Origin: a virus
Length of the DNA: 64,000 nt
Virus record (IMG/VR): IMGVR_UViG_2929074307_000005
Reading direction: 5' to 3' (one strand)
The notes under the pieces were generated by a model that saw nothing but the letters and a program-made list of their open reading frames with translations, was not told where the DNA came from and did not search any database. Made by a program: the position numbers and the translations under genes. Positions 7,456 to 62,830 of this stretch are shown here, one piece after another (position 1 is the first letter of the stretch; every line of letters begins with the position of its first letter).

Positions 7456-7763
7456 GCAGCCTCCGCCATGGCTTCGTCGGCAGGCTCTGCGCTGGCGGGC
7501 AGTGCGTCAAACAAGGCCTCATTGCTGGTAGCGATCGCGCCGCTTGTCTGGAAAACTTCGTATGTTTCGCCCGGGTAGAGCTTGGCGAGGCGTGTTGCCT
7601 CAGCCAGTGCTTGCTCAAACGACCCGTGTTCATACGGTAGGGTAGTGGCTACGCTGACGCGGCCGGTTTGTTTGCCGCGGCGGAATACAAAGAATCCGCC
7701 GCCGATTACTTCGTTCATGCGAGGTGCTGGCGATCTTCTTCTCGGGGTTTTTGCGTTCGTCAT
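7452..7763 (-). CDS. Hypothetical protein; first gene of the leftward early operon
   Basis: Preceded on the minus strand by ccaacctaACACGAGGAGtgacccaATG, the phage-typical initiation element. Confidence 0.5.
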   Translation of the reverse strand: MTNAKTPRRRSPAPRMNEVIGGGFFVFRRGKQTGRVSVATTLPYEHGSFEQALAEATRLAKLYPGETYEVFQTSGAIATSNEALFDALPASAEPADEAMAEAA

Positions 7764-7869
7764 TGGGTCACTCCTCGTGTTAGGTTGGTTCAGCAGATCA
7801 AGCTGGTGAGGCTGTCTTCGTGCTGTTCTGTCACCTTTATATGCGTATCAGTCATCCTATGTCAACATA

Positions 7870-7892
7870 GATGATGACAAAAACACATCATC
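7870..7892. promoter_or_regulatory. Palindromic operator-like site GATGATGacaaaaacaCATCATC in the leftward-operon promoter region
   Basis: Perfect 7-bp inverted arms in an AT-rich intergenic region; a second palindrome TTATGAT/ATCATAA lies at ~7940-7960. Confidence 0.35.
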
Positions 7893-7985
7893 AGAATTCA
7901 CAGGGTTAACCAGGCGTAAAGAATGTTCTTGAATTGTTCCGATTATGATGGAATCATAATTCAAGAGTTAAGCGTGTGAGGTGCC

Positions 7986-8213
7986 ATGTATCCGCTGTTT
8001 GTTGTCCAAGGATTTACTGCGTGCAGATGGGGCGTGATTCCTGATGCTCCGATCCAGGTAGATACAGAGGATCATGCGCTGAGATTGGCTCATCGCTTGG
8101 CATGCGAAAAGCCTGCCGTCCTTGCTTTGTATAGATGGAACAATGAAACGCAGATCATCGCCGCTATCGGGCGTGTCCCGGATAGCGCACTTGAAGCAGT
8201 AGCTATTGGCTAG
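7986..8213 (+). CDS. Hypothetical small protein
   Basis: GAGGTG Shine-Dalgarno sequence before ATG 7986. Confidence 0.4.
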   Translation: MYPLFVVQGFTACRWGVIPDAPIQVDTEDHALRLAHRLACEKPAVLALYRWNNETQIIAAIGRVPDSALEAVAIG

Positions 8214-8216
8214 CTT

Positions 8217-8894
8217 TTAGCGGGTGTTGTACTTGCCAACGACGCGGTGACAGACTGGCCAATCCGCGCGAAATTCCTTGAATTCCTTATGCGGGTTGTA
8301 CTGTTCCAGCATCCATTCGCGGTCATTGAAGCCGACGAGTCGCTTGATGATAGCTTCGTTCTCGTCCATTGCGCTTGTGTGATAAAGAATTACATCTTCA
8401 TCGCGAACCGGCGGCAAATTCGGGTTCACGAGTGCGGTTTCACCCGGACGATAGGCAGGAACCATTGATTCCCCGGACAATAGAAGGCCGTATCCACCTT
8501 TAACGCCCTGCAGTACTGCAGGCATTTTCATATAGCTGATTGGATCAAAGGTGATGATAACGTGTCCATCGCCGCCCTTCGCTGCAGCGTAAACGGGCAG
8601 GCCGCGCTCTTGGCTTACAAGCTGGTCGCCCGGGATTGGTGCAGGTGTAAAAGTATCAGCAATCGGCTTAGCTGATGACGCGGTCATTTCGCCATTGCCG
8701 AAGGCAAGCCAATCCTCATTAAGATCCAGCGCACGAGCAAGGCGGGCTACAAATTCAACACTGGCCCCGCGCTTCCCGCTTTCCAAAAGACTGATCGACG
8801 ACTTGTCTCGCCCAATAAGAGCGGCAAGGTCAGCCTGGCTCATTTCTTTAAGGTCACGCGCCAAACGAAGGCGCTGCGCGAAATCTTTGTCCAT
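8217..8894 (-). CDS. cI: CI-like prophage repressor (HTH_XRE N-domain plus S24 LexA-like peptidase C-domain)
   Basis: HTH MSQADLAALIGRDKSSISLLESGKR. S24 motifs GESMVP (catalytic Ser) and IIKRLVG (Lys). Start taken at MDKDF (8894). Confidence 0.85.
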   Translation of the reverse strand: MDKDFAQRLRLARDLKEMSQADLAALIGRDKSSISLLESGKRGASVEFVARLARALDLNEDWLAFGNGEMTASSAKPIADTFTPAPIPGDQLVSQERGLPVYAAAKGGDGHVIITFDPISYMKMPAVLQGVKGGYGLLLSGESMVPAYRPGETALVNPNLPPVRDEDVILYHTSAMDENEAIIKRLVGFNDREWMLEQYNPHKEFKEFRADWPVCHRVVGKYNTR

Positions 8895-8937
8895 GTTGCG
8901 CTTTTCGCATATTGTTGTGAAAATGTAACGTGCGAAA

Positions 8938-8957
8938 ATGTCACCACATGTTGACAT
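8938..8957. promoter_or_regulatory. Operator palindrome ATGTCAccacatgtTGACAT; TGTCA half-sites recur at ~8968 and ~8980
   Basis: Imperfect 20-bp palindrome overlapping the -35 of the rightward promoter, in the cI-cro intergenic region. Confidence 0.45.
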
Positions 8958-8979: not shown

Positions 8980-9428
8980 GGTGTCATCAACCGGCGCAAA
9001 AGACGCTGGACAGTTCGAAGGAGGGCCTACCTCATGATGCCAGAGAACATCCACCCAAGGATATCGGCACTCAATAGATAGAAGCCGCGCTAACGCGCAA
9101 TTGAAACTGAGGAGAGAGCAAATGACCAATTCCGCCGAAAGAAGCGAACCGGCTCTCGTTGAGGCGCCGCCGTAGGATCAATAGGGACGCTGCTGACCTT
9201 AATAGGGTCAGTGGTGCTTTCGGCGTTCCTGAATGTCGAGAGATTTATAGGACGGCGTTGTGAGCCGGCACCACCCGCTGCTCCGCCGTCCTCGTAATAC
9301 CCCGGCTTACACGAGGAGGGCTTGCGCCACTTCTACACCGGGGGTTCCTTCGCGAGTACCACCCCGCGCAGGACAACAGATGGCTTCACCAAAGTCATTT
9401 GTCAACCAACACCACACACGAGGAGATC

Positions 9429-9710
9429 ATGAAAGATTATGAAACCATAGAAGAAGTGCATCGCATGCACGAGGTGGGCGCCAACCCGACAGAGATCGGA
9501 AATGCGCTTAGCTTGCCCAGATCGACGGTAGCTTCAATTCTGCGTCGTCCTATTCCAAAACCTACAGCCGACCGCATTGTCGTGCGGTGCGTTTCGAACG
9601 GTGGATGGTCCACGGCCAATCACTGCGTCAGTTATATCGCAATGCCACGCATCCGTGCGCTGGAAGCCGCGAACGACAATTACGAACAGCCGGGCGCAAT
9701 CGCAGCCTGA
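9429..9710 (+). CDS. HTH DNA-binding early regulator (Cro/CII-like position)
   Basis: HTH EVGANPTEIGNALSLPRSTVASIL; preceded by caccacACACGAGGAGatcATG; C-terminal AANDN. Confidence 0.6.
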   Translation: MKDYETIEEVHRMHEVGANPTEIGNALSLPRSTVASILRRPIPKPTADRIVVRCVSNGGWSTANHCVSYIAMPRIRALEAANDNYEQPGAIAA

Positions 9711-9767: not shown

Positions 9768-9971
9768 ATGAAATCTCATAACTTGCGTGAGCCACACAAG
9801 GCTTACCAAACCAAATTCACGCGGACTGGTGAGCGGGACACGACGAACCGCAAGCCTTATCGAACAGCCGCGCAGAAGCTGCATGCCCGAGACACTGCCG
9901 TCCTTAAAGACGGTCGGTATGTTTCTAACGTCCCTGTGTCGTTCAGCAGAACGAAGCGGGGTGCGGCGTGA
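9768..9971 (+). CDS. Hypothetical basic protein
   Basis: GGAGG Shine-Dalgarno sequence before ATG 9768. Confidence 0.45.
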   Translation: MKSHNLREPHKAYQTKFTRTGERDTTNRKPYRTAAQKLHARDTAVLKDGRYVSNVPVSFSRTKRGAA

Positions 9972-10273
9972 CTTGCGAATGCGGTGACTGCTGGGATCTG
10001 CCCGGCTCAATTGTGACCCACAAGCTGACAGGCTGGAAGGGCATCATCATCGGCGACCGAGATGGCTGCATGTTCCTCACGGTGCGGTTCTGGATACCAG
10101 GCACCGGCCTTGGGACGATCGAAGTTTCGCGCTTCGAAGTCGAACCACCTGCCAGTGATGGCGGCGGCGGTGGCGGCTCTGAGGTCGGAACAGAAGAAGA
10201 CAACGTCATTCCGGTCGATTTCACCAAGGGCGTGAAGCTCACTAAAAACACCAAAACACGAGGAGTAGCTTGA
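9968..10273 (+). CDS. Hypothetical protein (Cys-rich N-terminus, Gly run)
   Basis: GTG start overlapping the upstream stop. Confidence 0.45.
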   Translation: MTCECGDCWDLPGSIVTHKLTGWKGIIIGDRDGCMFLTVRFWIPGTGLGTIEVSRFEVEPPASDGGGGGGSEVGTEEDNVIPVDFTKGVKLTKNTKTRGVA

Positions 10274-11073
10274 TGGGTAAACTTAAAGTTGGAGATAAGG
10301 TTAGAAGCCTTGTGACGCAGATCGACGTTCGTGCGGGCAAACTTTACGAGGCCGCTCGCAGTGATGCTGATAGTGGCGTTTGGGTTATCGATGATGTTGG
10401 TGACCAGTTCTACTTGACGAATGAAGAGTTCGAAATTCTGCCGGTTGCGATACCGACATTTGAGGTCGGGGATCGGGTACAAACTATTGCTGACTCACTT
10501 CCTTGGTACAGAGCGGGTGAAGTCGCGGAAGTCGTTATAGCAGATGGCGGAGATGACGATTGCTTTGTTCGATTTAACTCGGATCGAATGGCGAGCGACA
10601 GCTGGTATGTGAAGTGGAAGCATATCCAACTCGCTCCCCTCAAAATCGAAGCAGGCAAATACTACCGCACGCGTGACGGCCGTAAGGTTGGGCCTATGAA
10701 TGCTGCGGAAAGCGAGGGGTATGCTTTTTCTGGTGCATTGGTTGGCGTCGGTTATATTAAGATTTTTCAGTCAACTGGAGTACATGGTTCCATCTACATC
10801 CAGAATGAGCCAGATTTTGACCTCATCGCCGAATGGATTGAGGAGCCTGTCAAGGCATCTGCACCGGTTGCCGTGCAACAGGACTCACCAGAACTAACGC
10901 TCAAGCTCTCATTCGATGCCGTTGATGTAACCAATGCGATCAAAACCACCCTCCTGAAAACAAATCAGGGGTACGGCTTCGAGATTGCACGTCACGGTGA
11001 TTACGTCTGGGTTGATACGGGCAAGAAAGCGCCGATCGTGCTCAAGGCCAACGACGTGCAAGCCGCCGCCTAA
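10273..11073 (+). CDS. Hypothetical protein (267 aa)
   Basis: Conserved aacACGAGGAG element upstream; C-terminal KANDVQAAA. Confidence 0.55.
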   Translation: MGKLKVGDKVRSLVTQIDVRAGKLYEAARSDADSGVWVIDDVGDQFYLTNEEFEILPVAIPTFEVGDRVQTIADSLPWYRAGEVAEVVIADGGDDDCFVRFNSDRMASDSWYVKWKHIQLAPLKIEAGKYYRTRDGRKVGPMNAAESEGYAFSGALVGVGYIKIFQSTGVHGSIYIQNEPDFDLIAEWIEEPVKASAPVAVQQDSPELTLKLSFDAVDVTNAIKTTLLKTNQGYGFEIARHGDYVWVDTGKKAPIVLKANDVQAAA

Positions 11074-11593: not shown

Positions 11594-11751
11594 ACGTCGT
11601 CACGCCAGCCGACAATGGCACCGGTAAGATAGCGCGTTCGCTGGCTTTGACCGGCTTCACCCTTGGGTTCTTGCTGATCGTGGCAGGATTGATTTTTTGG
11701 AACGCAGTGTTGCCGTTCTACGGCCTGCTTTATTTGTGGGGTGCGTCATGA
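11590..11751 (+). CDS. Small membrane peptide (53 aa)
   Basis: GTG start; hydrophobic LTGFTLGFLLIVAGLIFW; ATGA overlap with the next. Confidence 0.3.
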   Translation: MNVVTPADNGTGKIARSLALTGFTLGFLLIVAGLIFWNAVLPFYGLLYLWGAS

Positions 11752-11849
11752 CCTACCCACGGTTCCCCACAATGACGACGGAAGCTCCAGTCTGGCTGAT
11801 CGGCTCGCTCATCCTGCTGGCCATGATGGTCGGTCTGAAAATCCTATGA
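11748..11849 (+). CDS. Small membrane peptide (33 aa)
   Basis: PVWLIGSLILLAMMVGL; ATGA overlaps at both ends. Confidence 0.3.
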   Translation: MTYPRFPTMTTEAPVWLIGSLILLAMMVGLKIL

Positions 11850-11956
11850 ACGCCTTAGCTCTAATAGGCGGGATCGTCGTTTGCGCAATCATCGCCTACG
11901 GGGTCGCGCAGATCGTTGCAAACACCACACCACCAAAAAACACGAGGAGAAAATAA
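11846..11956 (+). CDS. Small membrane peptide (36 aa)
   Basis: LALIGGIVVCAIIAYGV; its 3' end encodes the ACACGAGGAG element of the next gene. Confidence 0.3.
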   Translation: MNALALIGGIVVCAIIAYGVAQIVANTTPPKNTRRK

Positions 11957-12807
11957 TGCGAGGCATCGCGGCACTATTTGCGGGCTTTGTGGCCCTTCTA
12001 GTCACTATCACCGTCGTATTCGGCTCTTGGTACACCATCGACCAAGGCGAAAGAGGCGTGCTGTTGCGCAACGGGGCGGTTGTTGGCTCTGCACAGCCCG
12101 GTCTTGGCTTTAAAACGCCTTGGATTGAGGAGGTTGTGAAGGTGTCTGTGCAGTCACGCGCTCAGATTTACAAGGAAGTGCCCGCTTATTCGAAAGATCA
12201 GCAGTCAGCCATCCTTGCGCTTTCTGTCAATTATCGCATTCCCGCAGATCAGGTGACTGAAGTCTATGGCACGTATGGAGGTGAGGATGGCTTGCTTGCT
12301 CGTCTTGTTGATCGGCGCGTCAATGAAGATCTGAAGACCGTTTTTGGCAGGTTTACCGCTGTGCAGGCCATTCAGGAACGAGGGCGGTTAAATATGGAGG
12401 TTGCGACAGCCGTTCAAAATTCGGTCAAAGGTCCGGTGATTATCGACAGCGTGCAGATCGAAAACATCGACTTTTCCGATGTCTATGAAGCCAGCATTGA
12501 GCAGCGAATGCTTGCGGAAGTCGAAGTGCAGAAACTTCGCCAAAACGCCGAGCGCGAAAAGGTTCAAGCCGAAATCACTGTGACACAGGCAAAGGCCAAT
12601 GCGGACGCTGTGCGTGCTCAATCCAATGCTGAAGCCGAAGCAATCCGTATCAAAGGCGACGCCGAAGCGGCTTCTATCAAGGCACGTGGCGATGCGCTGC
12701 GCGAAAATCCCGGTCTTGTGGCTCTGACGCAAGCCGAGAAGTGGAATGGCCAGTTGCCAACCACGATGTTACCGGGCGGCTCGGTGCCGATGCTGCAGCT
12801 GCGATAA
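11956..12807 (+). CDS. SPFH / band-7 (prohibitin/HflC-like) membrane protein
   Basis: N-terminal transmembrane helix, SPFH core, and C-terminal Ala/Glu-rich coiled coil (AEVEVQKLRQNAEREKVQAEI...). Confidence 0.8.
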   Translation: MRGIAALFAGFVALLVTITVVFGSWYTIDQGERGVLLRNGAVVGSAQPGLGFKTPWIEEVVKVSVQSRAQIYKEVPAYSKDQQSAILALSVNYRIPADQVTEVYGTYGGEDGLLARLVDRRVNEDLKTVFGRFTAVQAIQERGRLNMEVATAVQNSVKGPVIIDSVQIENIDFSDVYEASIEQRMLAEVEVQKLRQNAEREKVQAEITVTQAKANADAVRAQSNAEAEAIRIKGDAEAASIKARGDALRENPGLVALTQAEKWNGQLPTTMLPGGSVPMLQLR

Positions 12808-12871
12808 GCAAACTCGGCGGGGTTCGCTCCGCCACACCACCACCCCACCAAACACACACGAGGAGTTAATT

Positions 12872-13645
12872 ATGGCTATCAGCCTATCAAGCCTCAAATC
12901 GACGAAGAGAAACGACCGGCCAGTCATGCTTTTGTATGGCGTCGACGGTATCGGCAAGACCAGCCTTGCTGCTGAGTTTCCAGATCCGATCTATCTGGCC
13001 ACAGAAGGCGAGCGTCCGCCGTCTGATATTGAAATGGCAACGCCAGGCACGATTGAAAGCTTCGAAGACCTGCTCAACATCATCGGCGAACTGCTGACCG
13101 TTGAACATGATCGGCGCACCGTCATTATCGACAGCGTCGACGGATTAGAACCGCTTGTCTGGGCGGCAACCTGTGCCCGCTTAGGAGTAAGCAGTATTGA
13201 AGAGCCTGGGTTCGGGCGTGGTTACGTCGAGGCTGATAGCGAGTGGCACGAGCTGATGTCTGCAGTCTCAGCGCTCTCGCGTACTGGAATCCACGTCGTG
13301 ATGCTGGCCCACCCTGAGATTATTCGGTTCGACAGTCCAGTCACCGATCCATACTCACGCTACACGATAAAGTTGCATAAACGAGCCAATTCTCTCGTCC
13401 GGGAAAAAGTCGATATCGTGGCCTTCATGAATTATCGCGTGTCCATCAAGGAGAAAGAGGTCGCTCGCCAAACGAAGGTGGCGCACGCGGAAGGTGGCAA
13501 GGAGCGTAATATTCATCTGAACGAAGGTGCGGGCTATGTGGCGAAAAATCGCTTCTCTATGCCGGACTCGATCGTTTACCGAAAAGGTCAGGGCTACGCT
13601 GAGTTAGCAAAGTTCTGGGCTGAAGAAAAAGCTGAAGCTGCATAG
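12872..13645 (+). CDS. P-loop ATPase, Sak4/AAA_24-like (RecA-fold recombination-associated)
   Basis: Walker A GVDGIGKTSLA near the N-terminus; size and context (next to an SSB-like gene). Confidence 0.65.
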   Translation: MAISLSSLKSTKRNDRPVMLLYGVDGIGKTSLAAEFPDPIYLATEGERPPSDIEMATPGTIESFEDLLNIIGELLTVEHDRRTVIIDSVDGLEPLVWAATCARLGVSSIEEPGFGRGYVEADSEWHELMSAVSALSRTGIHVVMLAHPEIIRFDSPVTDPYSRYTIKLHKRANSLVREKVDIVAFMNYRVSIKEKEVARQTKVAHAEGGKERNIHLNEGAGYVAKNRFSMPDSIVYRKGQGYAELAKFWAEEKAEAA

Positions 13646-13647
13646 GC

Positions 13648-14283
13648 TTGCTGTTCGAGTTGAAAAGCCTGCCTAAATCCAAAGCGGAAGCAATGGCGCT
13701 AGGTGTAAGGCACTTCTTCACTGGAATTCCGTGCACTCGTGGACACGTTGCGAAAAGGTACGCTAGCACGGGTCAGTGTACTGAATGCCAGTACCTCCAT
13801 AGGCTCAACTGGAAAAGCAATAATCCCGAAAAAGAAGCCGAGAGCAGACTTCAAGGCGTACGAGCATGGGCGCTACGAAATCCAGATCGGAAACGAGATT
13901 TGGCGCGTAAGTCAAATGCAAAGCCAGATGTCTCGGCGAACAACGTAGCAAGAGCGAAGCGATGGAGAGACAAAAACCCTGAGCAGGCCAGAAACTCTCG
14001 GCTGGTATCTAATCGGAATAGGCGCTCAAGAAAGAGGGGGGCTGAAGGTACTCATATCGCCGAAGACATAGCAAACATACTGAAGCGCCAAAAATACAGA
14101 TGCGCTGAATGTGGAGTTTCGGTCCGAAAGATTGAGCAGCGGCATGTTGATCACATCGTACCCTTAGCTTTGGGTGGATCTAATTGGCCATCTAACCTGC
14201 AAGTACTCTGTCCTGCTTGCAATCTGCATAAAGCGGCGAAAGATCCGCTAGTTTTCGCTCGGCAAAAAGGGCGACTTATTTAA
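13648..14283 (+). CDS. HNH endonuclease
   Basis: CAECGVS...HVDHIVPLALGGSNWPSNLQVLCPACNLHK. Confidence 0.7.
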   Translation: MLFELKSLPKSKAEAMALGVRHFFTGIPCTRGHVAKRYASTGQCTECQYLHRLNWKSNNPEKEAESRLQGVRAWALRNPDRKRDLARKSNAKPDVSANNVARAKRWRDKNPEQARNSRLVSNRNRRSRKRGAEGTHIAEDIANILKRQKYRCAECGVSVRKIEQRHVDHIVPLALGGSNWPSNLQVLCPACNLHKAAKDPLVFARQKGRLI

Positions 14284-14311
14284 CCACATCACCAACACGA
14301 GGAACTAACAC

Positions 14312-14881
14312 ATGGCATCACTAGGTAAGACCTACGTCGCAGGTGACGTAGATACCACGCAGAAAGACTTTGAAGACCTGCCTGCGGGTATCATGCAGTT
14401 CGAGATCGAAGCTACAGACGTTGTTGAAACCGGGCCCGAAGGCGCAAGAACCGGCGTCGGCCTCAAGTACACGGCGAACGTGCTCGCTCCTGAAGAAGTC
14501 TCAGGACGCAAGTTTTTTGGCTTCATCAATCTCGAGAACAAGAACCCTACGGCGCAAGAAATTGGTCAGCGCGAGTTTGCTTCGCTCCGCCGTGCCTGTG
14601 GGATTGACCAAATCGACGACACTGAAGAACTGCATTTCCGAACCTACACCGTGAAGCTTGGATTGGGTCGACCTTCCAAGGATGGGAAATATCCAGCGCG
14701 CATGGAAGTAAAGCGTTACTTCTTCCCCGATGAAGGCAACGTGCCAGAGCCGAGCATTGACGCTCAGCAGCCTGCGGCGGCAGCGCAGCGGCCTGCCAAC
14801 GACAACCGTCTTGCAGCGGCAAACAATAACAAGCCTGCGCAGCCTGCAAAAGCTGCGGGCAGCCGTCCCTGGTCTAAGTAA
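14312..14881 (+). CDS. SSB-like protein (DUF669-like), tentative
   Basis: Size, acidic/Pro/Ala-rich C-terminal tail with ANDN, and position after a Sak4-like ATPase. Confidence 0.45.
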   Translation: MASLGKTYVAGDVDTTQKDFEDLPAGIMQFEIEATDVVETGPEGARTGVGLKYTANVLAPEEVSGRKFFGFINLENKNPTAQEIGQREFASLRRACGIDQIDDTEELHFRTYTVKLGLGRPSKDGKYPARMEVKRYFFPDEGNVPEPSIDAQQPAAAAQRPANDNRLAAANNNKPAQPAKAAGSRPWSK

Positions 14882-15395: not shown

Positions 15396-15456
15396 CGCAC
15401 CAACCATGGCGCGGTCACCAGCCGCGCCTGACACCACCAACACGAGGAGAAAACCC

Positions 15457-16515
15457 ATGCGGGTAACGCTTGACCGAGCGCAGCTTGCGCACGCCTTGTC
15501 GACCGTGACAAAGGCAGTTGAGGCCAGAACGACAATTCCGATTCTTGGCAACGTGCTTTTGTCCGCGGACAAAGGACAGCTGAGCATCACTGGCACCAAT
15601 CTCGATCTGGAAATCAGCACCAGTTTGCCGGTTCTGGATAGCCAAGAAGGCACTGTCACAGTTGCGGGTAAGTTGCTTCTGGATATTGCCAAGCGCGCCA
15701 CGAGTGACGTTAATTTGGAAGCCGACGGCAATCATCTGGTCGTTAAATCTGGCAAGAGCCGTTTCAAACTCGACACGCTTCCAGCTGCGGACTTCCCGTC
15801 CTTCAATCGCGGAAGCTTCGACACGACGATCGACATCGATCTAGCCGCGCTTGTTGGTGCGGTTAACTTCGCTGTCAGTAACGAAGACACCCGCTATTAC
15901 CTGAACGGCGTATTTTTGGAAGCGAAGGACGGCCAGATTGTTGCCACGGCAACAGACGGACATCGCCTTGCATCGACACGCATTGAGCAGGAAGCCACGT
16001 TTGCACCCGTTATTCTGCCGAACAAGCTGCTGTCATTGCTGCCCACCGGAGTCGTGTCGGTTTCGCTGTCATCAAACAAGGTGATGGTCGAGGTCGGTTC
16101 GACTGTCATCGTGTCGAAACTCGTCGACGGCACTTATCCAGATTACGAGCGCGTTATTCCAAAGCCCTCGGAGCGTGTCGCTACTCTGTCGGCTAAAGCA
16201 CTGCGCGAAGCAGTCGGCCGCACATCAGTTATCGCCAGCGAGCGTGGGCGCGCTGTGCGCTTATCATTCGCTTCGGATGCTCTGACGTTGAACGTTGCTA
16301 ATCCAGATCGCGGCGATGCGACTGAGGAGATGGAAGTCAACTTCAGTAGCGAGCCGCTGACGATCGGTTTTAACGGCCAATATGTCACCGACCTCATGGC
16401 AGCGTTTGGCGCGGATGAAGTTACGATGTCGATGGCCGATTCCGGTTCGCCTGCGCTGATCACGTCGGCAAGTAGGCCGGGATACAGGTGCGTACTTATG
16501 CCGATGCGGGTTTAG
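15457..16515 (+). CDS. dnaN: DNA polymerase III beta subunit (sliding clamp), phage-encoded
   Basis: N-terminus MRVTLDRAQLAHALSTVTKAVEARTTIPILGNVLL; three-domain length; conserved initiation element upstream. Confidence 0.85.
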   Translation: MRVTLDRAQLAHALSTVTKAVEARTTIPILGNVLLSADKGQLSITGTNLDLEISTSLPVLDSQEGTVTVAGKLLLDIAKRATSDVNLEADGNHLVVKSGKSRFKLDTLPAADFPSFNRGSFDTTIDIDLAALVGAVNFAVSNEDTRYYLNGVFLEAKDGQIVATATDGHRLASTRIEQEATFAPVILPNKLLSLLPTGVVSVSLSSNKVMVEVGSTVIVSKLVDGTYPDYERVIPKPSERVATLSAKALREAVGRTSVIASERGRAVRLSFASDALTLNVANPDRGDATEEMEVNFSSEPLTIGFNGQYVTDLMAAFGADEVTMSMADSGSPALITSASRPGYRCVLMPMRV

Positions 16516-20052: not shown

Positions 20053-20126
20053 GGCTTGCGCCGACTGACGACCCCACCACAATGAGCATTACCCGGCCTC
20101 ACCAGCCAACCACACGAGGAGAAAAC

Positions 20127-21306: not shown

Positions 21307-21366
21307 CCTTTAACCAACACCCGCCAGCCACCAACTGGCGGGTTACCACACACGAGGAGAGAATGA

Positions 21367-21939
21367 ATGCATGCACCGCTACCCAGCGGGCCTTTCGGCT
21401 GCGTCCTTGCGGACCCGCCATGGTCTTTCAGAACATACGGTAAAAAAGACGTCGCACCGGCACGAGGCCGTCAGCCTTACGGCGTGATGTCACTTGACGA
21501 TATCAAAGCACTGCCTGTCGAACAGGTATGTGCTCGCGACTGTTTGTTGTTCATGTGGACGGTTTCACATCTACAGGCTGCTGCGATCGAGGTGGCTGCC
21601 GCATGGGGCTTTAAGCCTGTTAGTGTTGCTTTTGTCTGGGACAAAGGCCGCATGGGCATGGGTTATTGGACACGGCAGGAAGTCGAAATCTGTCATCTGT
21701 TCAAGCGCGGTAAGCCTCGCCGTCTATCGAAAGGCGTGCGCTCCCTGATCAAGGCCCCGCGCCGCGAGCATTCCCGCAAGCCAGATGAGCAATACGGACG
21801 CATCGAGAGGCTGGTTGACGGTCCTTATCTCGAGCTCTTCGCTCGTCAGGCGTGGCCGGGCTGGTCTTCATGGGGCAACGAGTCTGATAAGTATGTTGCC
21901 GCAAACGATAATCAGGATTTGCTGGGGAGGGTGGCTTAA
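21367..21939 (+). CDS. N6-adenine DNA methyltransferase, MT-A70 family
   Basis: DPPW motif (CVLADPPWSF); conserved initiation element upstream. Confidence 0.8.
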   Translation: MHAPLPSGPFGCVLADPPWSFRTYGKKDVAPARGRQPYGVMSLDDIKALPVEQVCARDCLLFMWTVSHLQAAAIEVAAAWGFKPVSVAFVWDKGRMGMGYWTRQEVEICHLFKRGKPRRLSKGVRSLIKAPRREHSRKPDEQYGRIERLVDGPYLELFARQAWPGWSSWGNESDKYVAANDNQDLLGRVA

Positions 21940-60667: not shown

Positions 60668-61531
60668 ATGAACAAAACAACGTTCTTCGCGTATGCGAGG
60701 CGCGCGCCTTTTGGCGGCCGTCTTTCGCAGGCGCAAGTCAGCGGCACCGAGGCAATTCTTGCCGAAGCCGCTAAAAGGAATCTGCCCGACGAACAGATCG
60801 CATACATCCTCGCGACCGTCTTCCACGAGACTGGCGGCAAGATGCAACCGGTTGTCGAGAAACTGAATTACTCGTCGGCTGCGCGCATTAGGCAGGTTTG
60901 GCCTAAGCGCTTTTCTTCGGTCGCTGCTGCCCAGCCTTATGTGAATAATCCGCAGGCGCTTGCAAATAAGGTCTACGGCGGTCGCATGGGTAACGACAGC
61001 GTTAACGACGGCTGGACTTATCGCGGACGTGGCCTGCCTCAGATCACTGGCGAGGACAATTACAAGAAGTTCGGCATTGCCGATACACCGGAGAAGGCGC
61101 TGGAGTTAGCCACTGCAATCCGCATCCTGTTTGAAGGAATGGTGCTGGGCAAGTTTACGGGCCGCAAGCTCGCGGATTATTTCGGCAAGGGCAAAGCCGA
61201 TCCAGAAGGCGCGCGAGTCATCGTCAACGGAACCGATAAGGCCACGCTGATCGCCGGCTATTACCGCAACTTCCTCGACAGCCTTATCGCTGCGCGCGAA
61301 ATGAAGGCGGCAGCTGTCGAAGATGCCAAGCCTGACGATGTGCCGTTGCTTAAGGATAAGACGGTGCAGACCATTGTCGCCGCTGGCGGCGGTACGTTCG
61401 TAACCGGACTTATAGGTGCTGTTTCGAACCCGTGGGCCTTCCTGACAGTTGCCTTGATCGTGGTTGCCTTGGGTGGCGGCTTCTGGCTTTGGCATACAGG
61501 TAGGCTGGAACTGAAAAGGGCGGCGGCGTGA
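60668..61531 (+). CDS. Endolysin, GH19/lysozyme-like, with a C-terminal hydrophobic anchor
   Basis: HETGG...YRGRGLPQITGEDNYKKFG motifs; C-terminal transmembrane-like FLTVALIVVALGGGFWLW. Confidence 0.65.
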   Translation: MNKTTFFAYARRAPFGGRLSQAQVSGTEAILAEAAKRNLPDEQIAYILATVFHETGGKMQPVVEKLNYSSAARIRQVWPKRFSSVAAAQPYVNNPQALANKVYGGRMGNDSVNDGWTYRGRGLPQITGEDNYKKFGIADTPEKALELATAIRILFEGMVLGKFTGRKLADYFGKGKADPEGARVIVNGTDKATLIAGYYRNFLDSLIAAREMKAAAVEDAKPDDVPLLKDKTVQTIVAAGGGTFVTGLIGAVSNPWAFLTVALIVVALGGGFWLWHTGRLELKRAAA

Positions 61532-61716
61532 GGATCGTGATTGACTACGATGTTTATGCTCAGACTGCTGCAGTTACGATCGACGGCACGGTCCAGCATT
61601 GGACTGATGTGCGCTTAACTCTCGCGCGAGGCGTCACTGAAACACGCGACGGGTATCTGATCCGCCGCGAACGCGACGGTTCGAAGTCTTTGCTTCTTAC
61701 GGGGGAGCAGACGTGA
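61528..61716 (+). CDS. Hypothetical small protein in the lysis cassette
   Basis: GTGA overlap with the endolysin stop. Confidence 0.35.
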   Translation: MRIVIDYDVYAQTAAVTIDGTVQHWTDVRLTLARGVTETRDGYLIRRERDGSKSLLLTGEQT

Positions 61717-61949
61717 CCTTCCTCTTAGCCCTACGCTCCAAGCTGACAGGCTACGCCGTGGCAATCGCTGCGGCGCTGGCGGTCCTTGTCAGCGCGTACC
61801 TCAAAGGCCGGTCTGATAGCAAAACAGCTCAGACGGCACGAGACGCACAATCCGCAACCAAAGCACGGAAGATAGAAAATGAAGTCAGCCGTCTTGATGA
61901 CAGCGCTGTTGACGCTCGGCTTGCTAAGTGGATGCGCGACAAGCGGTAA
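61713..61949 (+). CDS. Rz-like inner-membrane spanin
   Basis: N-terminal transmembrane helix then a charged coiled coil. Confidence 0.5.
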   Translation: MTFLLALRSKLTGYAVAIAAALAVLVSAYLKGRSDSKTAQTARDAQSATKARKIENEVSRLDDSAVDARLAKWMRDKR

Positions 61950-62064
61950 CTATTGCGACGTGGCGCGGGCGATCTATGCCAGCCATGACGACACATCAGA
62001 AACCAAGCGCCAGATCCTGGCCGAGAATGAGAAAATGGAAAAGCTGTGCGGGGTACGGCCTTGA
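61879..62064 (+). CDS. Rz1-like outer-membrane lipoprotein spanin, overlapping the Rz 3' end in another frame
   Basis: Lipobox LLSGC after a signal peptide; overlapped Rz/Rz1 architecture. Confidence 0.55.
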   Translation: MKSAVLMTALLTLGLLSGCATSGNYCDVARAIYASHDDTSETKRQILAENEKMEKLCGVRP

Positions 62065-62101
62065 GGAATCCTGCAATGAACGAATTGATGGGTAACGTGA
62101 A

Positions 62102-62437
62102 ATGACTGGCACTGAAATCATGGGCGTTGTCGGCTTCATCGTGATGCTGTTTGGCTTTTTGTTTGGCCTTTGGAAGTACGTCGACAGCAAGATCAACGCC
62201 GCGAGAAACGAAACGGCCGCCAAAGCCGAAGCAGCCACAGCGCTTGCCGCTCTGACGCGGCAGGAGCTTTCAGACTACAAGCTGCGTGCGGCTGAAACCT
62301 TCGCCACAAAGGCCGGGATGCAGGAACAGACCTCACAGATCATGCGCGCCATCGAAAGCGTTGCAAACCGCATCGATGGGCTTACCGAGCGCATGGATCG
62401 GGTGTTCGAGCAGAAGACGACGCGGGCGCGATCATGA
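62102..62437 (+). CDS. Single-transmembrane membrane protein (holin-like candidate)
   Basis: N-terminal transmembrane helix IMGVVGFIVMLFGFLFGLW then a coiled coil. Confidence 0.4.
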   Translation: MTGTEIMGVVGFIVMLFGFLFGLWKYVDSKINAARNETAAKAEAATALAALTRQELSDYKLRAAETFATKAGMQEQTSQIMRAIESVANRIDGLTERMDRVFEQKTTRARS

Positions 62438-62554
62438 TGTTGAAAGAAAGCGGTCTCTGGGCCCCTCTTTTTTTGTTTGACGCCCCTTTCACTTCCACCA
62501 CAATGACAAATTGCGGGCTACCAACCCGCAAACCAACCAACACGAGGAGACTGT

Positions 62555-62830
62555 ATGTCTGAACAGGCACAGGGCGCGGGAGCGCGCGTAAATACGGGCG
62601 GCAACGCCTTTCCTTCACCAGACTGGAATGGTGACTGGAAAGGCCCGGACGCTAGCCATGGCATGACGTTGCGTGATCATTTTGCTGGGCAAGCGCTGAA
62701 TGGCCTCATTGGCGGATCGCACCATGAGATGGCGACCGTCGCAGAGGCGAACAATACAACAATCCTCAAGGTGGCTGCCTCGCTAGCTTACGCTTACGCC
62801 GACGCCATGATTGCTGCCAGAGGACACTAA
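62555..62830 (+). CDS. Hypothetical protein
   Basis: ccaaccaACACGAGGAGactgtATG upstream. Confidence 0.45.
   Translation: MSEQAQGAGARVNTGGNAFPSPDWNGDWKGPDASHGMTLRDHFAGQALNGLIGGSHHEMATVAEANNTTILKVAASLAYAYADAMIAARGH

What the first reader, a model, noticed from the sequence alone, without database searches (positions are those of the whole stretch)
7740..62560. Conserved extended translation-initiation element: CA-rich tract + ACACGAGGAG + 4-9 nt + ATG on at least 12 genes of both strands
The same element precedes ATG at 7763 (minus strand), 9429, 10273, 11956, 12872, 14312, 15457, 20127, 21367, 27312, 28368 and 62555. A typical instance is ccaccaACACGAGGAGaaaacATG. The GGAG core is Shine-Dalgarno-like. 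The invariant ACAC-G and the upstream CA repeats are not complementary to the 16S rRNA 3' end. A CA-rich translational enhancer, or a binding site for a phage or host factor, is possible. Many copies lie inside the 3' end of the preceding gene, so they constrain its C-terminal coding (for example ...PPKNTRRK*).
Basis: seen in the sequence. Interest (0 to 1): 0.6.

Follow-up and report, generated by a model that had tools for sequence, protein, structure and literature searches.

The report
Phage early-gene ribosome-landing cassette
A prophage of Brucella/Ochrobactrum places the same short signal (a stretch of only C and A, then ACAC, then a strong ribosome-binding site, often behind a small hairpin) in front of 13 of its non-structural genes, most likely to load ribosomes efficiently; the signal belongs to the 16-3-like phage lineage and is not the host's ordinary ribosome-binding site.

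Summary
ACACGAGGAG occurs 12 times exactly (0.13 expected), plus two one-mismatch copies. Thirteen copies lie 3-9 nt before the ATG of non-structural genes on both strands. One further copy (9309) sits in the early-right leader.

The 10-mer is the 3' end of a larger cassette that fills gaps between genes. The cassette often starts with a hairpin with a variable stem and an invariant ACCA loop. A 6-28 nt stretch of only C and A follows, then ACAC+GAGGAG, then ATG.

It is not the host's generic ribosome-binding site. It occurs once among 180 annotated Brucella anthropi plasmid genes and not at all in 8.3 kb of flanking chromosome.

More than 40 related prophages keep the 10-mer almost unchanged while the flanks vary. 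Rhizobium phage 16-3, NV1.1.1 and RHph_TM3_3_14B carry a sister form (CACCAC...GAGGAGAC) with the same hairpins.

Genes with the cassette follow a gap. Genes without it mostly overlap the upstream stop codon.

Best reading: a cis-acting translation-initiation cassette, made of a CA/ACA-type standby site or enhancer plus a Shine-Dalgarno sequence. It is analogous to the unexplained start-associated sequences of Cluster K mycobacteriophages. A dedicated trans-acting factor is not excluded.

The parts
5004..5084 (-). Cassette before a 77-aa gene (5006..4773). It comprises hairpin GCCTGC-caaccaa-GCAGGC (5066-5084), hairpin CCGGTTG-accg-CAACCGG (5036-5053), CA tract (5026-5035), ACACGAGGAG (5016-5025) and ATG (5004-5006).
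   Evidence: the gene was called independently in L171
7761..7813 (-). Cassette before the first gene of the leftward early operon (7763..7452, 103 aa). It comprises weak hairpin AGC-ctcacca-GCT (7801-7813), CA tract (7781-7791), ACACGAGGAG (7771-7780) and ATG (7761-7763).
9290..9324 (+). ATG-less leader copy: ACACGAGGAG (9309-9318), with no CA tract, followed by TTG (9322-9324). That TTG opens a 36-codon ORF whose stop overlaps the 9429 ATG. The upstream CCTCGT (9290-9295) can pair with ACGAGG. The copy is conserved 106-108 nt upstream of the 9416-type copy in relatives.
9376..9431 (+). Cassette before the first rightward early gene (9429..9710, 93 aa). It comprises an 11-bp hairpin with loop cacca (9376-9402), CA tract (9403-9415), ACACGAGGAG (9416-9425) and ATG (9429-9431).
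10244..10275 (+). CA tract (10244-10255), ACACGAGGAG (10256-10265) and ATG (10273-10275) of a 266-aa gene. This copy is embedded in the 3' end of upstream ORF 9968..10273.
11919..11958 (+). CA tract of 21 nt (11919-11939), ACACGAGGAG (11940-11949) and ATG (11956-11958) of an SPFH/Band-7 gene. It overlaps the end of possible ORF 11741..11956.
12816..12874 (+). Hairpin GGCGGGG-ttcg-CTCCGCC (12816-12833), CA tract of 22 nt (12834-12855), ACACGAGGAG (12856-12865) and ATG (12872-12874) of a Sak4-like recombinase/AAA_24 gene.
14282..14314 (+). CA tract (14282-14294), variant ACACGAGGAA (14295-14304) and ATG (14312-14314) of a DUF669/SSB-like gene. It starts 12 nt after the stop of an HNH gene.
15408..15459 (+). 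Hairpin GGCGCGG-tcaccag-CCGCGCC (15408-15428), CA tract (15431-15439), ACACGAGGAG (15440-15449) and ATG (15457-15459) of the phage DnaN sliding clamp.
20095..20129 (+). Mini-hairpin GGC-ctcacca-GCC (20095-20107), CA (20108-20111), ACACGAGGAG (20112-20121) and ATG (20127-20129) of an exonuclease gene.
21319..21369 (+). Hairpin ACCCGCCAG-ccaccaa-CTGGCGGGT (21319-21343), CA (21344-21349), ACACGAGGAG (21350-21359) and ATG (21367-21369) of an MT-A70 methyltransferase. In relatives this same cassette is flanked by unrelated genes on either side.
27236..27314 (+). Hairpin TTGTTCCG-ctaccaa-CGGGACAA (27236-27258), mini-hairpin AGC-ccaccaa-GCT (27269-27281), variant AAACGAGGAG (27294-27303) and ATG (27312-27314) of a phosphoesterase gene.
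28345..28370 (+). CA tract (28345-28351), ACACGAGGAG (28352-28361) and ATG (28368-28370) of a 121-aa gene of unknown function.
62511..62557 (+). Hairpin TTGCGGG-ctaccaa-CCCGCAA (62511-62531), CA tract (62532-62539), ACACGAGGAG (62540-62549) and ATG (62555-62557) of a 91-aa gene that matches a PHROG annotated as a transcriptional regulator.

Best explanation
The element is a cis-acting RNA cassette for translation initiation. It starts independent ribosome loading inside the long transcripts of the prophage's non-structural genes.

**Anatomy, 5' to 3'.**
1. In about half of the copies, a small hairpin sits just after the upstream stop codon. Its stem sequence is free to vary and its loop carries an invariant ACCA (consensus YNACCAR).
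2. A stretch of 6-28 nt made almost only of C and A follows. It cannot fold on itself.
3. Next comes ACAC, an ACA-type enhancer motif.
4. Next comes GAGGAG, a 6-nt Shine-Dalgarno sequence. Its first G can pair with the 16S tail as G·U.
5. A 3-9 nt spacer, often A-rich, follows, and then ATG.

**Proposed mechanism.**
- The single-stranded CA/ACA stretch acts as a standby site or enhancer for the 30S subunit. Ribosomal protein S1 is the suspected contact in enterobacteria.
- The Shine-Dalgarno sequence then positions the ATG.
- The hairpin insulates the landing pad from upstream coding sequence. It may also present a further single-stranded CA-rich loop.
- Genes without the cassette are mostly translationally coupled to the gene before them.

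**Shown.** Sequence, position, conservation, rarity in the host, predicted accessibility, hairpin covariation, and the two classes of gene junction.

**Inferred.** Enhancer or standby activity in an alphaproteobacterial host, the role of S1, and the role of the hairpin.
For: **Position and distribution**
- The motif is locked in strand and in distance to ATGs. There are 12 exact copies against 0.13 expected. Of 279 copies in 43 related sequences, 271 have a start codon 2-9 nt downstream.
- Only GAGGAG pairs with the anti-Shine-Dalgarno sequence (-8.7 kcal/mol). ACAC stays unpaired.
- The cassette is restricted to non-structural genes: 13 of 53, against 0 of 27 in the structural block (Fisher p=0.003).
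- Cassette genes follow an intergenic gap in 33 of 36 cases (median 65 nt). Non-cassette genes overlap or abut the upstream stop in 123 of 202 cases.

**Accessibility**
- The predicted unpaired probability over -18..+6 is 0.605 for cassette genes and 0.425 for others (p=1.6e-14).
- The Shine-Dalgarno duplex energy is -9.5 against -7.2 kcal/mol.

**Selection**
- In BLAST-anchored alignments of orthologous sites, mismatch is 0-4% in the 10-mer. It is 6-26% in the CA tract and 12-35% in the spacer.
- The CA tract changes sequence but stays 93% A/C at -6..-1.

**Host comparison**
- The motif occurs once in 200 kb of B. anthropi plasmid DNA, upstream of 1 of 180 annotated genes. GGAG lies upstream of 77 of those 180.
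- It is absent from 8.3 kb of host chromosome flanking the prophage.

**Literature**
- In Salmonella, ACA motifs just upstream of a GAGGA Shine-Dalgarno sequence raise translation up to 10-100-fold, and G substitutions are the most harmful (PMC3879156).
- Single-stranded CA-repeat tails act as ribosome standby sites, with a maximal effect at 16-18 nt (PMC5934652).
Against: - No experiment has been done in this system or in any alphaproteobacterium. The enhancer literature is enterobacterial.
- If lack of structure plus ACA were enough, ACACG need not be invariant across 13 sites and more than 40 genomes. Nor would the sister lineage need a different fixed extension (GAGGAGAC). Extensions that are uniform within a lineage are what a co-evolving trans factor would produce.
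- The invariant ACCA hairpin loop is not needed for a plain standby site and remains unexplained.
- The Shine-Dalgarno sequence is not the strongest available. For example, gene 11139 has GAGGAGGT at -13.6 kcal/mol.
- Copy 9309 has no CA tract and no ATG.
- The accessibility prediction partly follows from composition alone.
Confidence: 0.55

Rival explanations
1. The cassette is the operator of a post-transcriptional regulon. A dedicated trans-acting factor would recognise the ACCA loop, the CA tract or the extended Shine-Dalgarno sequence. That factor could be a phage- or host-encoded RNA-binding protein, or a G/U-rich small RNA acting as GcvB does on C/A-rich enhancers. It would switch translation of the 13-17 cassette genes on or off together, for example at the early-to-late transition or in the lysogen.
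For: - Bases outside the anti-Shine-Dalgarno pairing are invariant.
- The extensions are uniform within each lineage but differ between lineages: ACAC-GAGGAG in Brucellaceae prophages and CACCAC..GAGGAGAC in Rhizobiaceae phages.
- The ACCA loop is invariant on stems that vary freely, which is the pattern of a protein- or RNA-recognised hairpin.
- There is precedent. GcvB silences ACA/CA enhancers. Start-associated sequences were proposed as possible factor-binding sites.
Against: - No RNA-binding domain was detected by Pfam in about 40 phage ORFs.
- No complementary G/U-rich RNA candidate was found in the window apart from the antisense strands of the cassettes themselves.
- Only about half of the cassettes have the hairpin, so it cannot be obligatory.
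- Hairpin-to-Shine-Dalgarno spacing varies widely, with gaps of about 0 to 35 nt or more.
Confidence: 0.2
2. The cassette is an RNA processing and stability module. An endonuclease would cut in or near the single-stranded CA/ACAC stretch. The upstream fragment would then end in a protective 3' hairpin. The downstream fragment would start at a ribosome-protected Shine-Dalgarno sequence. Known parallels are the RNase III sites between T7 early genes, T4 RegB cutting at GGAG, and the intercistronic hairpins of the Rhodobacter puf operon.
For: - The order stop codon, hairpin, single-stranded tract, Shine-Dalgarno sequence recurs at intergenic gaps.
- The hairpins are not followed by U tracts, so they are not intrinsic terminators. 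A canonical terminator with a U tract does exist at about 26455-26483.
- ACA is the cleavage motif of MazF-type toxins. This is general knowledge and is also noted in PMC3879156.
Against: - There are no transcript-end data.
- No RegB-, MazF- or RNase-like gene was detected.
- Half of the cassettes lack a stable hairpin.
- CA-rich RNA is a poor RNase E substrate (general knowledge).
- This model does not explain the strict distance to the ATG any better than the translation model does.
Confidence: 0.1
3. The element works at the DNA level. Candidates are a conserved linker or boundary sequence at which homologous recombination shuffles gene modules, a promoter or operator (as now proposed for the extended start-associated sequences of Cluster K phages), or a Chi-like site (its complement contains TGGTGG).
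For: - In relatives the same roughly 45-nt cassette is flanked by unrelated genes upstream and/or downstream.
- About half of the orthologue alignments break within 45 nt upstream of the motif.
- The phage encodes a Sak4-like annealing protein.
- The extended start-associated sequences of Cluster K were re-read as SigA promoters with an operator (PMC11373665).
Against: - The distance to the ATG is fixed and the strand always follows transcription, which points to RNA.
- The stems vary with compensatory and G·U-compatible changes while the loop is invariant. This is the opposite of a double-stranded DNA operator.
- Nothing is conserved upstream of the hairpin, and the CA tract has no T-rich -10 element.
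- Shared identity between different sites in one genome is only 10-20 nt.
- Mosaic junctions at gene boundaries are expected from selection alone.
Confidence: 0.07
4. The ACCA-loop hairpins are boxB-like nut sites for a lambda-N-like antiterminator with an arginine-rich motif. The candidate is the product of the first leftward gene (7763..7452), whose N-terminus reads MTNAKTPRRRSPAPR.
For: - A small protein with an Arg-rich N-terminus is encoded by the first gene of the leftward operon.
- The hairpins have fixed loops on variable stems.
- From memory, the phi21 boxB also has a C/A-rich loop.
Against: - There are 6-10 hairpins per genome instead of one per operon.
- No boxA-like element is present.
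- The Arg-rich protein has no counterpart among the first leftward genes of 16-3, NV1.1.1 or RHph_TM3_3_14B, although these phages share the hairpins.
- The hairpins are tied to start codons, not to promoters or terminators.
Confidence: 0.04
5. The motif is simply the host's ordinary or optimal ribosome-binding site and says nothing specific about the phage.
For: - GGAG-type Shine-Dalgarno sequences are the host norm: 77 of 180 genes.
- One host plasmid gene, an HU-family gene on pOANT02, has the exact 10-mer.
Against: - The motif precedes 1 of 180 annotated host plasmid genes and 0 of 7 flanking chromosomal genes. It precedes 13 of about 80 prophage genes.
- Only 2 of 180 host starts have a CA-rich tract upstream.
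- Structural genes of the same prophage do not use it.
Confidence: 0.03

Closest known systems
[quoted passage not shown] 2011, PMC3203893)
   Same: - Both are asymmetric 10-13-bp repeats with an AGGAG core whose conservation extends beyond 16S pairing.
- Both lie 3-9 nt before start codons, nearly always ATG.
- Both have 11-19 copies per genome and occur only on non-structural genes.
- Both are rare or absent in the host.
- Both precede unrelated gene families in related phages.
- About half the copies in each have an extra upstream inverted repeat.
- The function of SAS was still untested in 2024-2025.
   Different: - There is no sequence similarity (GGGATAGGAGCCC against CA tract + ACACGAGGAG).
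- The hosts belong to different phyla.
- The element here has a C/A-only tract, which SAS lack.
- ESAS arms are sequence-conserved, do not covary, and are now read as promoter plus operator DNA. Here the stems vary with compensatory changes and the loop is fixed, which indicates an RNA hairpin.
ACA-motif / C/A-rich translational enhancers of enterobacterial mRNAs (yifK, dppA, gltI; Yang et al. 2014, PMC3879156) and CA-repeat ribosome standby tails (Sterk et al. 2018, PMC5934652)
   Same: - Both are single-stranded, G-poor CA/ACA sequences directly upstream of a GAGGA-type Shine-Dalgarno sequence.
- The length range (10-28 nt) brackets the 16-18 nt optimum for CA tails.
[quoted passage not shown]
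   Different: - The known cases are individual host genes or synthetic tails in E. coli and Salmonella. This is a repeated, lineage-wide phage cassette in Alphaproteobacteria.
- This element has an invariant ACAC abutting the Shine-Dalgarno sequence and, often, a structured ACCA-loop hairpin.
- No GcvB-like partner was identified.
Intercistronic processing and regulatory signals of phage early operons (T7 RNase III sites; T4 RegB cleavage at GGAG; T4 RegA operators). This comparison rests on general knowledge.
   Same: All are repeated RNA signals at the starts of many early genes that act after transcription. RegB targets the GGAG of early Shine-Dalgarno sequences.
   Different: - No RegA, RegB or RNase homologue was detected.
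- The hairpins are short (5-11 bp) and are not RNase III-type duplexes.
- No cleavage data exist.
Stoperators of Cluster A mycobacteriophages. This comparison rests on general knowledge, and they are contrasted with SAS in PMC3203893.
   Same: Both are short asymmetric repeats, in many copies, oriented with transcription.
   Different: - Stoperators are repressor-binding DNA sites and are not locked to start codons.
- In phage 16-3 the C-repressor operators are annotated only at PL and PR.

Membership tests
Shine-Dalgarno ribosome-binding site | A purine-rich stretch complementary to the 3' end of 16S rRNA | tested here: met
   GAGGAG forms 6 pairs (one G·U) with CUCCUU of the assumed tail ...CACCUCCUUUCU, at -8.7 kcal/mol. 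ACAC is unpaired. The 16S tail sequence is taken from general knowledge and was not read from this host.
Shine-Dalgarno ribosome-binding site | Sits about 4-10 nt upstream of the start codon of a real gene | tested here: met
   Spacing is 3-9 nt to the ATG in 13 of 13 gene-associated copies. Ten of the 13 downstream products have a PHROG or above-threshold Pfam match; the 9429, 5006(-) and 28368 products have none. Of 279 copies in relatives, 271 have a start 2-9 nt downstream.
ACA / C/A-rich translational enhancer or CA standby site | A G-poor, single-stranded CA/ACA tract next to the Shine-Dalgarno sequence | tested here: met
   Positions -6..-1 are 93% A/C. ACA is present in the invariant ACAC. 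Predicted unpaired probability is 0.605 against 0.425 for other genes.
ACA / C/A-rich translational enhancer or CA standby site | Mutating the tract lowers translation initiation (reporter assay, toeprint) | not testable with these tools
   This needs experiments. It has been shown only for Salmonella and E. coli mRNAs.
Cluster K SAS/ESAS | An asymmetric conserved repeat with a Shine-Dalgarno core 3-9 nt before ATGs, on non-structural genes only, and rare in the host | tested here: met
   compared with the description in PMC3203893
Cluster K SAS/ESAS | Consensus GGGATAGGAGCCC with at most 2 mismatches, in Cluster K actinobacteriophage genomes | tested here: not met
   The motif here is ACACGAGGAG in a 16-3-like phage of Alphaproteobacteria. 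It is an analogue, not a member.
Cluster K SAS/ESAS | ESAS: 17-bp imperfect inverted repeats with conserved arm sequence and no RNA covariation (DNA site or promoter) | tested here: not met
   Here the arms vary freely and pair in 93.6% of cells, with 53 cells changed on both sides, and the ACCA loop is invariant. The hairpins in that alignment were chosen for pairing in their inner 4-5 pairs, so that figure is partly circular. The loop-anchored test is not circular: 16 of 42 against 3 of 407.
Intrinsic (Rho-independent) terminator | A GC-rich hairpin immediately followed by a U tract | tested here: not met
   Cassette hairpins are followed by C/A-only tracts. None is listed as terminator-like on the cassette strand. 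A true terminator with a U tract lies at about 26455-26483.
Lambda-type nut site (boxA + boxB with an N protein) | One site per early operon, a boxA element, and a conserved N protein with an arginine-rich motif | tested here: not met
   There are at least 6 hairpins per genome, tied to start codons. No boxA is present. The Arg-rich first leftward-operon protein is not conserved in 16-3, NV1.1.1 or RHph_TM3_3_14B.
Host generic ribosome-binding site | The same extended motif upstream of many host genes | tested here: not met
   It precedes 1 of 180 annotated genes on B. anthropi plasmids pOANT01-03 and 0 of 7 genes in the 8.3-kb chromosomal flank.
T4 RegB/RegA-type early-mRNA control | A phage-encoded endoribonuclease or repressor acting on GGAG or the ribosome-binding sites of early mRNAs | tested here: inconclusive
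   GGAG is present in every copy. No homologous protein was found by Pfam or PHROGs, and many ORFs have unknown function.
Any described RNA family (Rfam 15) | A match at gathering threshold | tested here: not met
   Only two tRNAs matched in the window.

The most novel reading that the evidence does not exclude
The hairpin with the invariant ACCA loop, the CACCA-rich linker and the lineage-specific extended Shine-Dalgarno sequence together form the recognition site of a dedicated RNA-binding factor that has not yet been identified. The factor could be a protein or a G/U-rich small RNA, from the phage or the host. It would co-regulate translation or stability of some 13-17 non-structural genes in all 16-3-like phages. 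That would be a phage post-transcriptional regulon of a kind long suspected, but never demonstrated, for the start-associated sequences of mycobacteriophages.
Probability: 0.2. Interest if true: 0.8.

Novelty: new variant of a known kind. Interest (0 to 1): 0.55.

Why it matters
- **A natural test set for an open question.** CA-rich and ACA sequences stimulate translation initiation for reasons that are not understood. Sterk et al. 2018 called the effect "puzzling". This lineage supplies many natural instances: 13-17 per genome in more than 40 genomes, with a sister form in a second host family.
- **A second case of start-associated repeats.** This is an independent example in a different bacterial phylum. 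The mycobacteriophage repeats have remained functionally unexplained since 2011.
- **A tractable system.** Phage 16-3 of Sinorhizobium meliloti is a classical genetic system, so the question becomes testable there.
- **Practical uses.** The cassette marks true start codons, which helps annotation; several longest-ORF starts in the window are wrong. It also marks module boundaries. It is a candidate strong, insulated ribosome-binding part for Rhizobiales and Brucella engineering.
- **A new RNA motif candidate.** The ACCA-loop hairpin has no Rfam match.

Tried and rejected
- **Megablast against GenBank phages.** No close relative was found, only a methylase and a capsid stretch.
- **Rfam.** Only two tRNAs matched.
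- **Promoter and terminator scan of 4-24 kb.** Promoter-like hits were at chance level. The cassette hairpins are not terminator-like on the cassette strand.
- **Genome-wide count of ACCA-loop hairpins.** The total is not above shuffles (69 observed, 84 expected). Only the strong ones cluster at cassettes, so I switched to a loop-anchored test.
- **C/A-only and G/T-only runs.** They are not enriched overall (71 against 61), and no G/U-rich small-RNA candidate emerged.
- **Duplex scan for an RNA complementary to the cassette.** The best hit (24356-24395, minus strand) is antisense to primase coding sequence and is not a credible small RNA.
- **Pfam and PHROGs on about 40 ORFs.** No RNA-binding or RNase domain was found.
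- **IMG/VR pattern scan for the sister motif.** Multi-copy contigs were 16-3-sized.
- **Aurantimonas phage AmM-1** (DnaN 39% identical). It has no cassette, so the element is not general to Rhizobiales phages that carry dnaN.
- **Phage tRNA-Met as an initiator tRNA.** The anticodon stem lacks the three G-C pairs, so it looks like an elongator.
- **Lambda-N-like idea.** The Arg-rich protein is not conserved across the lineage.
- **Restriction-site or Chi-like readings** (CACGAG, GAGGAG, or TGGTGG in the complement). These are recalled from memory. I rejected them because the element is locked to ATGs and to the transcribed strand.
- **uORF after copy 9309.** The peptide is not conserved in relatives; frame-shifted variants occur. 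A coding role is therefore doubtful.

Full report

Yes. ACACGAGGAG occurs 12 times exactly in the 64-kb window. Dinucleotide-preserving shuffles give a mean of 0.13 and a maximum of 2.

Allowing one mismatch adds three copies:
- 14295 (ACACGAGGAA).
- 27294 (AAACGAGGAG).
- 44141. This copy lies inside a structural gene, has no CA tract, and is probably chance.

One is a 13th gene, with its ATG at 5006 on the minus strand and the motif at 5016-5025. The other is an ATG-less copy at 9309-9318.

Spacing from the motif to the ATG is 3-9 nt. A position-weight-matrix scan finds no further copies.

The CA-rich tract is also real. In 13 aligned sites, positions -6..-1 hold 5 G/T out of 78 bases. In 106 distinct upstream sequences from the window and its relatives, -6..-1 is 93% A/C and -12..-7 is 76% A/C. 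The longest C/A-only runs in the window (13-28 nt) mostly abut the motif.

**2. What is the genomic setting?**

The window is a prophage in NCBI assembly GCA_004341145.1, contig SLYR01000003.1. Its layout is:
- an integrase at the left end;
- a leftward operon (7763 down to about 1250);
- an S24/HTH repressor (8957..8217, minus strand);
- a long rightward operon of DNA-metabolism genes (9429 to about 29640);
- two tRNAs;
- a structural block (about 30-57 kb);
- further genes to the right.

Close relatives are prophages of Brucella (formerly Ochrobactrum) pseudogrignonensis, B. pituitosa, B. rhizosphaerae and Ochrobactrum spp.. There are also 36 IMG/VR contigs of about 57-66 kb.

By protein similarity it is a 16-3-like temperate rhizobiophage. 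Its DnaN is 48% identical to that of Rhizobium phage 16-3, and the gene order is the same.

**3. Which genes carry the motif?**

The 13 genes are all non-structural. They include:
- a Sak4-like annealing protein;
- a DUF669/SSB-like protein;
- the DnaN clamp;
- an exonuclease;
- an MT-A70 methylase;
- an SPFH protein;
- a phosphoesterase;
- the first gene of each early operon;
- several genes of unknown function.

None of the 27 genes in the structural block has the motif, against 13 of the 53 other genes (Fisher p=0.003). Other genes have ordinary or weak Shine-Dalgarno sequences.

"Early" is inferred from gene function and position. There are no expression data.

**4. The 10-mer is the 3' end of a larger intergenic cassette.**

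I compared annotated starts in the window with those in NV1.1.1, 16-3 and RHph_TM3_3_14B:
- Cassette genes follow an intergenic gap of more than 20 nt in 33 of 36 cases. The median gap is 65 nt.
- Other genes overlap or abut the upstream stop codon in 123 of 202 cases. These junctions are of the ATGA or TGATG type.

So the phage uses two kinds of gene junction. Coupled junctions carry weak GGNGG-type Shine-Dalgarno sequences. Uncoupled junctions are filled by the cassette.

**5. Many cassettes begin with a hairpin.**

Many cassettes start with a small hairpin just after the upstream stop codon. Examples:
- GGCGCGG-tcaccag-CCGCGCC before dnaN.
- ACCCGCCAG-ccaccaa-CTGGCGGGT before the methylase.
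- TTGCGGG-ctaccaa-CCCGCAA before 62555.
- Further hairpins before 9429, 27312 and 5006.

The association with cassettes was tested in three ways.

*Start-anchored count.* A hairpin of at least 5 bp with ACCA in the loop precedes 15 of 41 cassette starts. It precedes 9 of 228 other starts.

*Loop-anchored test.* This test does not pre-select hairpins.
- Of the 7-mers matching YNACCAR that lie 8-60 nt upstream of an extended Shine-Dalgarno sequence plus start, 16 of 42 are flanked by at least 5 consecutive base pairs.
- Elsewhere in the four genomes the figure is 3 of 407.
- The odds ratio is 83, with p=1.4e-15.

*Alignment of 18 hairpins from four phages.*
- ACCA is invariant.
- The seven stem pairs are 93.6% paired, against 45.5% when partners are shuffled.
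- There are 53 cells changed on both sides.
- The inner pairs were a selection criterion, so this figure is partly circular. The outer pairs and the loop-anchored test are not.

Orthologous sites show compensatory changes:
- CCGTGCGC/GCGCACGG against CCGTGCGG/CCGCACGG.
- AGGCT/AGCCT against AGGCG/CGCCT.
- At the dnaN site the loop is the same (tcaccag) on unrelated stems.

In one search the stem substitutions I traced among close relatives are C-to-T opposite G. These keep G·U pairs on the sense strand only. One search also lists a few variants that break a pair.

A variable stem with a fixed loop indicates an RNA hairpin read on the sense strand. It does not fit a double-stranded DNA operator. 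The hairpins are followed by C/A tracts, not U tracts, so they are not intrinsic terminators. A canonical terminator does exist at about 26455-26483.

**6. Conservation.**

All 36 IMG/VR relatives carry the 10-mer several times. Across the window and all 42 relatives there are 279 copies, and 271 have ATG or TTG 2-9 nt downstream.

I built alignments anchored by BLAST on the whole 140-nt context, without requiring the motif. They comprise 188 distinct orthologous sequences:

| Region | Mismatch |
|---|---|
| The 10-mer | 0-4% |
| CA tract | 6-26% |
| Spacer | 12-35% |

Each site has its own flanks, so the identity is not recent copy-and-paste. The 10-mer is under purifying selection at each site. 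The tract is selected for composition (A/C) rather than sequence.

In relatives, the same hairpin+CA+motif block is flanked by unrelated genes upstream and/or downstream. About half of the alignments end within 45 nt upstream of the motif. The cassettes therefore coincide with mosaic junctions.

**7. Is it the host's generic ribosome-binding site?**

- In 200 kb of Brucella anthropi ATCC 49188 plasmids pOANT01-03, with 180 annotated genes, the 10-mer occurs once. That copy is upstream of an HU-family gene and has no CA tract.
- In the same set, GGAG lies upstream of 77 of 180 genes. Only 2 of 180 have a CA-rich stretch of at least 85% A/C at -28..-15.
- The 8.3 kb of host chromosome flanking the prophage has no copy and 7 ordinary starts.

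This remains a limit of the analysis.

**8. A lineage-wide feature with two forms.**

Sinorhizobium phage NV1.1.1, Rhizobium phage 16-3 and Rhizobium etli phage RHph_TM3_3_14B have no ACACGAGGAG. Instead, 12-17 of their non-structural genes carry CACCAC(A), then 0-5 nt, then (G/A)AGGAGA(C), then 3-5 nt, then ATG. The same YNACCAR-loop hairpins lie upstream, and the structural genes again lack the element.

Aurantimonas phage AmM-1 shares a dnaN gene (39% identity) but is otherwise different, and it has no cassette.

The architecture is therefore ancestral to the 16-3-like lineage. The bases flanking GAGGAG are fixed differently in the two branches: ACAC on the 5' side in Brucellaceae prophages, and AC on the 3' side in Rhizobiaceae phages.

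I found no mention of this element in the searchable literature on these phages. For example, PMC10460002 does not mention it.

**9. How it most likely works.**

*What the sequence and predictions show.*
- GAGGAG pairs with the anti-Shine-Dalgarno sequence through 6 pairs, one of them G·U, at -8.7 kcal/mol. ACAC is unpaired.
- The ACAC and the tract cannot be explained by 16S pairing.
- Cassette initiation regions are predicted to be more open: 0.605 against 0.425 unpaired over -18..+6 (p=1.6e-14).
- They have stronger Shine-Dalgarno pairing: -9.5 against -7.2 kcal/mol.

*What experiments in enterobacteria show.*
- ACA motifs directly upstream of a GAGGA Shine-Dalgarno sequence enhance initiation 10-100-fold. 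Every base matters, and G is the worst replacement (PMC3879156).
- Single-stranded CA-repeat tails are potent ribosome standby sites, with an optimum at 16-18 nt (PMC5934652).

*My reading.* The cassette is a natural, modular version of this known arrangement. An insulating hairpin is followed by a CA/ACA landing pad, then the Shine-Dalgarno sequence and the ATG. The phage uses it wherever a gene has to be initiated independently of the gene before it.

Confidence is 0.55. Activity in Alphaproteobacteria, the involvement of S1 and the role of the hairpin are all inferred.

**10. Rival explanations.**

- **A trans-factor regulon (0.2).** The lineage-specific invariant extensions and the invariant ACCA loop would suit a co-evolving trans-acting factor. 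However, Pfam and PHROGs show no RNA-binding protein. No complementary RNA was found in the window. Only about half of the cassettes have the hairpin.
- **A processing or stability module (0.1).** This fits the order stop codon, hairpin, single strand, Shine-Dalgarno sequence. There are no supporting data.
- **DNA-level roles (0.07).** Recombination linker, promoter or operator as now proposed for ESAS, and Chi were considered. They fit poorly with the ATG-locked spacing, the strand rule and the stem covariation. The cassettes do, however, coincide with mosaic junctions.
- **A lambda-N/boxB-like reading (0.04).** The Arg-rich protein encoded by the first leftward gene is not conserved across the lineage.
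- **The host's generic ribosome-binding site (0.03).** This is contradicted.

**11. Comparison with what is known.**

The closest described phenomenon is the start-associated sequence (SAS), with its extended form (ESAS), of Cluster K mycobacteriophages.

Shared features:
- a 13-bp asymmetric repeat with an AGGAG core;
- placement 3-9 nt before ATGs;
- restriction to non-structural genes;
- absence from the host;
- in half of the copies, an upstream inverted repeat;
- function still unknown.

The present element works like an SAS by every positional criterion, but it is not a member of that family:
- there is no sequence similarity;
- the host belongs to a different phylum;
- it has a C/A-only tract, which SAS lack;
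- its upstream repeat behaves as an RNA hairpin with a fixed loop, whereas ESAS arms are conserved DNA now read as promoter plus operator.

Mechanistically it matches the ACA/CA enhancer and standby class. It differs in being a repeated phage cassette.

**12. Novelty and value.**

I rate it a new variant of a known kind. Its value lies in three things:
- It is a large natural set of CA/ACA-type initiation regions.
- It includes a new ACCA-loop hairpin motif.
- It occurs in a lineage that includes the genetically tractable phage 16-3.

Together these make the long-open questions about start-associated repeats and about CA-rich enhancement testable. If it is only a strong ribosome-binding cassette, it is useful but not surprising. 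If a dedicated factor reads it, it would be a new phage post-transcriptional regulon. Interest: 0.55.

**13. Limits.**
- All functional statements rest on sequence, prediction and analogy.
- Host sampling is limited to plasmids plus 8.3 kb of chromosome.
- Gene starts in the window are my own calls. They were checked against the independent calls in L171.
- The host 16S 3' end was assumed from general knowledge and not read.

Noticed in passing
window 9672, 14798, 19972, 19996, 21904, 22704, 24052, 28695, 29597, 30805 (+) and 4811 (-); also L047, L048, L049: There is a second recurrent motif in the same phage lineage, AAYGAYAAY, usually read in frame as [P/A]-A-N-D-N.

- **Counts:** 22 copies in the window (about 3 expected); 19-23 copies each in NV1.1.1, 16-3 and RHph_TM3_3_14B; 3-5 per 50 kb in host plasmids; none in AmM-1.
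- **Placement:** 18 of the 22 window copies are in frame in real genes by my own arithmetic on the coordinates. About 11 lie 11-31 codons before the stop of unrelated non-structural proteins.
- **Context:** Some are followed by a pentapeptide that resembles a beta-clamp-binding motif (ANDNVSAQPSLFGDAA* in the window; ANDNSPQLSLFGDAA in RHph_TM3_3_14B).
- **Possible meaning:** It may be a shared peptide docking motif, for example for the phage's own DnaN. Only 18 of 83 copies lie within 70 nt of the next start.
   Followed up: partly
window 37993-43748: A Tn3-family transposon is inserted in the structural module. It carries a transposase (38475-41450, minus strand), a resolvase (41549-42208), a GNAT acetyltransferase (42198-42752), a PLP-dependent enzyme (42813-43748) and an ASCH-domain gene (37993-38343, minus strand). 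The prophage may be disabled by it.
   Followed up: partly
window 57055-59603 (-): A low-GC island (44.5% against about 53%) carries two family-2 glycosyltransferase genes. It is probably a cargo gene block that modifies the cell surface (seroconversion).
   Followed up: partly
window 29971-30129 (+): tRNA-Thr(TGT) and tRNA-Met(CAT) genes lie between the non-structural and structural modules. The tRNA-Met anticodon stem lacks the three G-C pairs typical of initiator tRNAs. NV1.1.1 has a tRNA-Met at the equivalent place.
   Followed up: partly
window 8951-9428 (+): A candidate rightward early promoter, TTGACA-17 nt-TATATA, lies at 8951-8979 and overlaps the start of the repressor gene. A leader of about 440 nt follows. 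It contains the ATG-less motif copy at 9309, whose Shine-Dalgarno sequence can pair with CCTCGT (9290-9295). That CCTCGT can alternatively pair further upstream, so this could be a leader switch.
   Followed up: no
L016, L022, L027, L035 and other relatives (for example the copies listed under MTHSIRA, MTISIRA and MNISVRA): Several relatives have a cassette followed by a short conserved ORF, M-x-x-SIRALFAVNDKYPP, that stops after 17 codons and then continues as ...TNRSAGL. This could be a small peptide gene or a recoding site. I did not search the window for it.
   Followed up: no
window 7452-7763 (-): The first gene of the leftward early operon encodes a 103-aa protein with an arginine-rich N-terminus (MTNAKTPRRRSPAPR). 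It occupies the position of lambda N but is not conserved in 16-3, NV1.1.1 or RHph_TM3_3_14B.
   Followed up: partly
L045 32437-32715 (-), B. anthropi plasmid pOANT02: The only host-plasmid copy of ACACGAGGAG lies 10 nt upstream of an HU-family DNA-binding protein gene and has no CA tract. It is probably chance.
   Followed up: no
L048 (Rhizobium phage 16-3) 19941 against 20001: The annotated start of the 16-3 dnaN gene (p081) lies 60 nt upstream of where similarity to the window's DnaN begins. It may be mis-set. Several longest-ORF starts in the window (11881, 12746, 15406, 20049) are likewise displaced by the cassette-marked ATGs.
   Followed up: no
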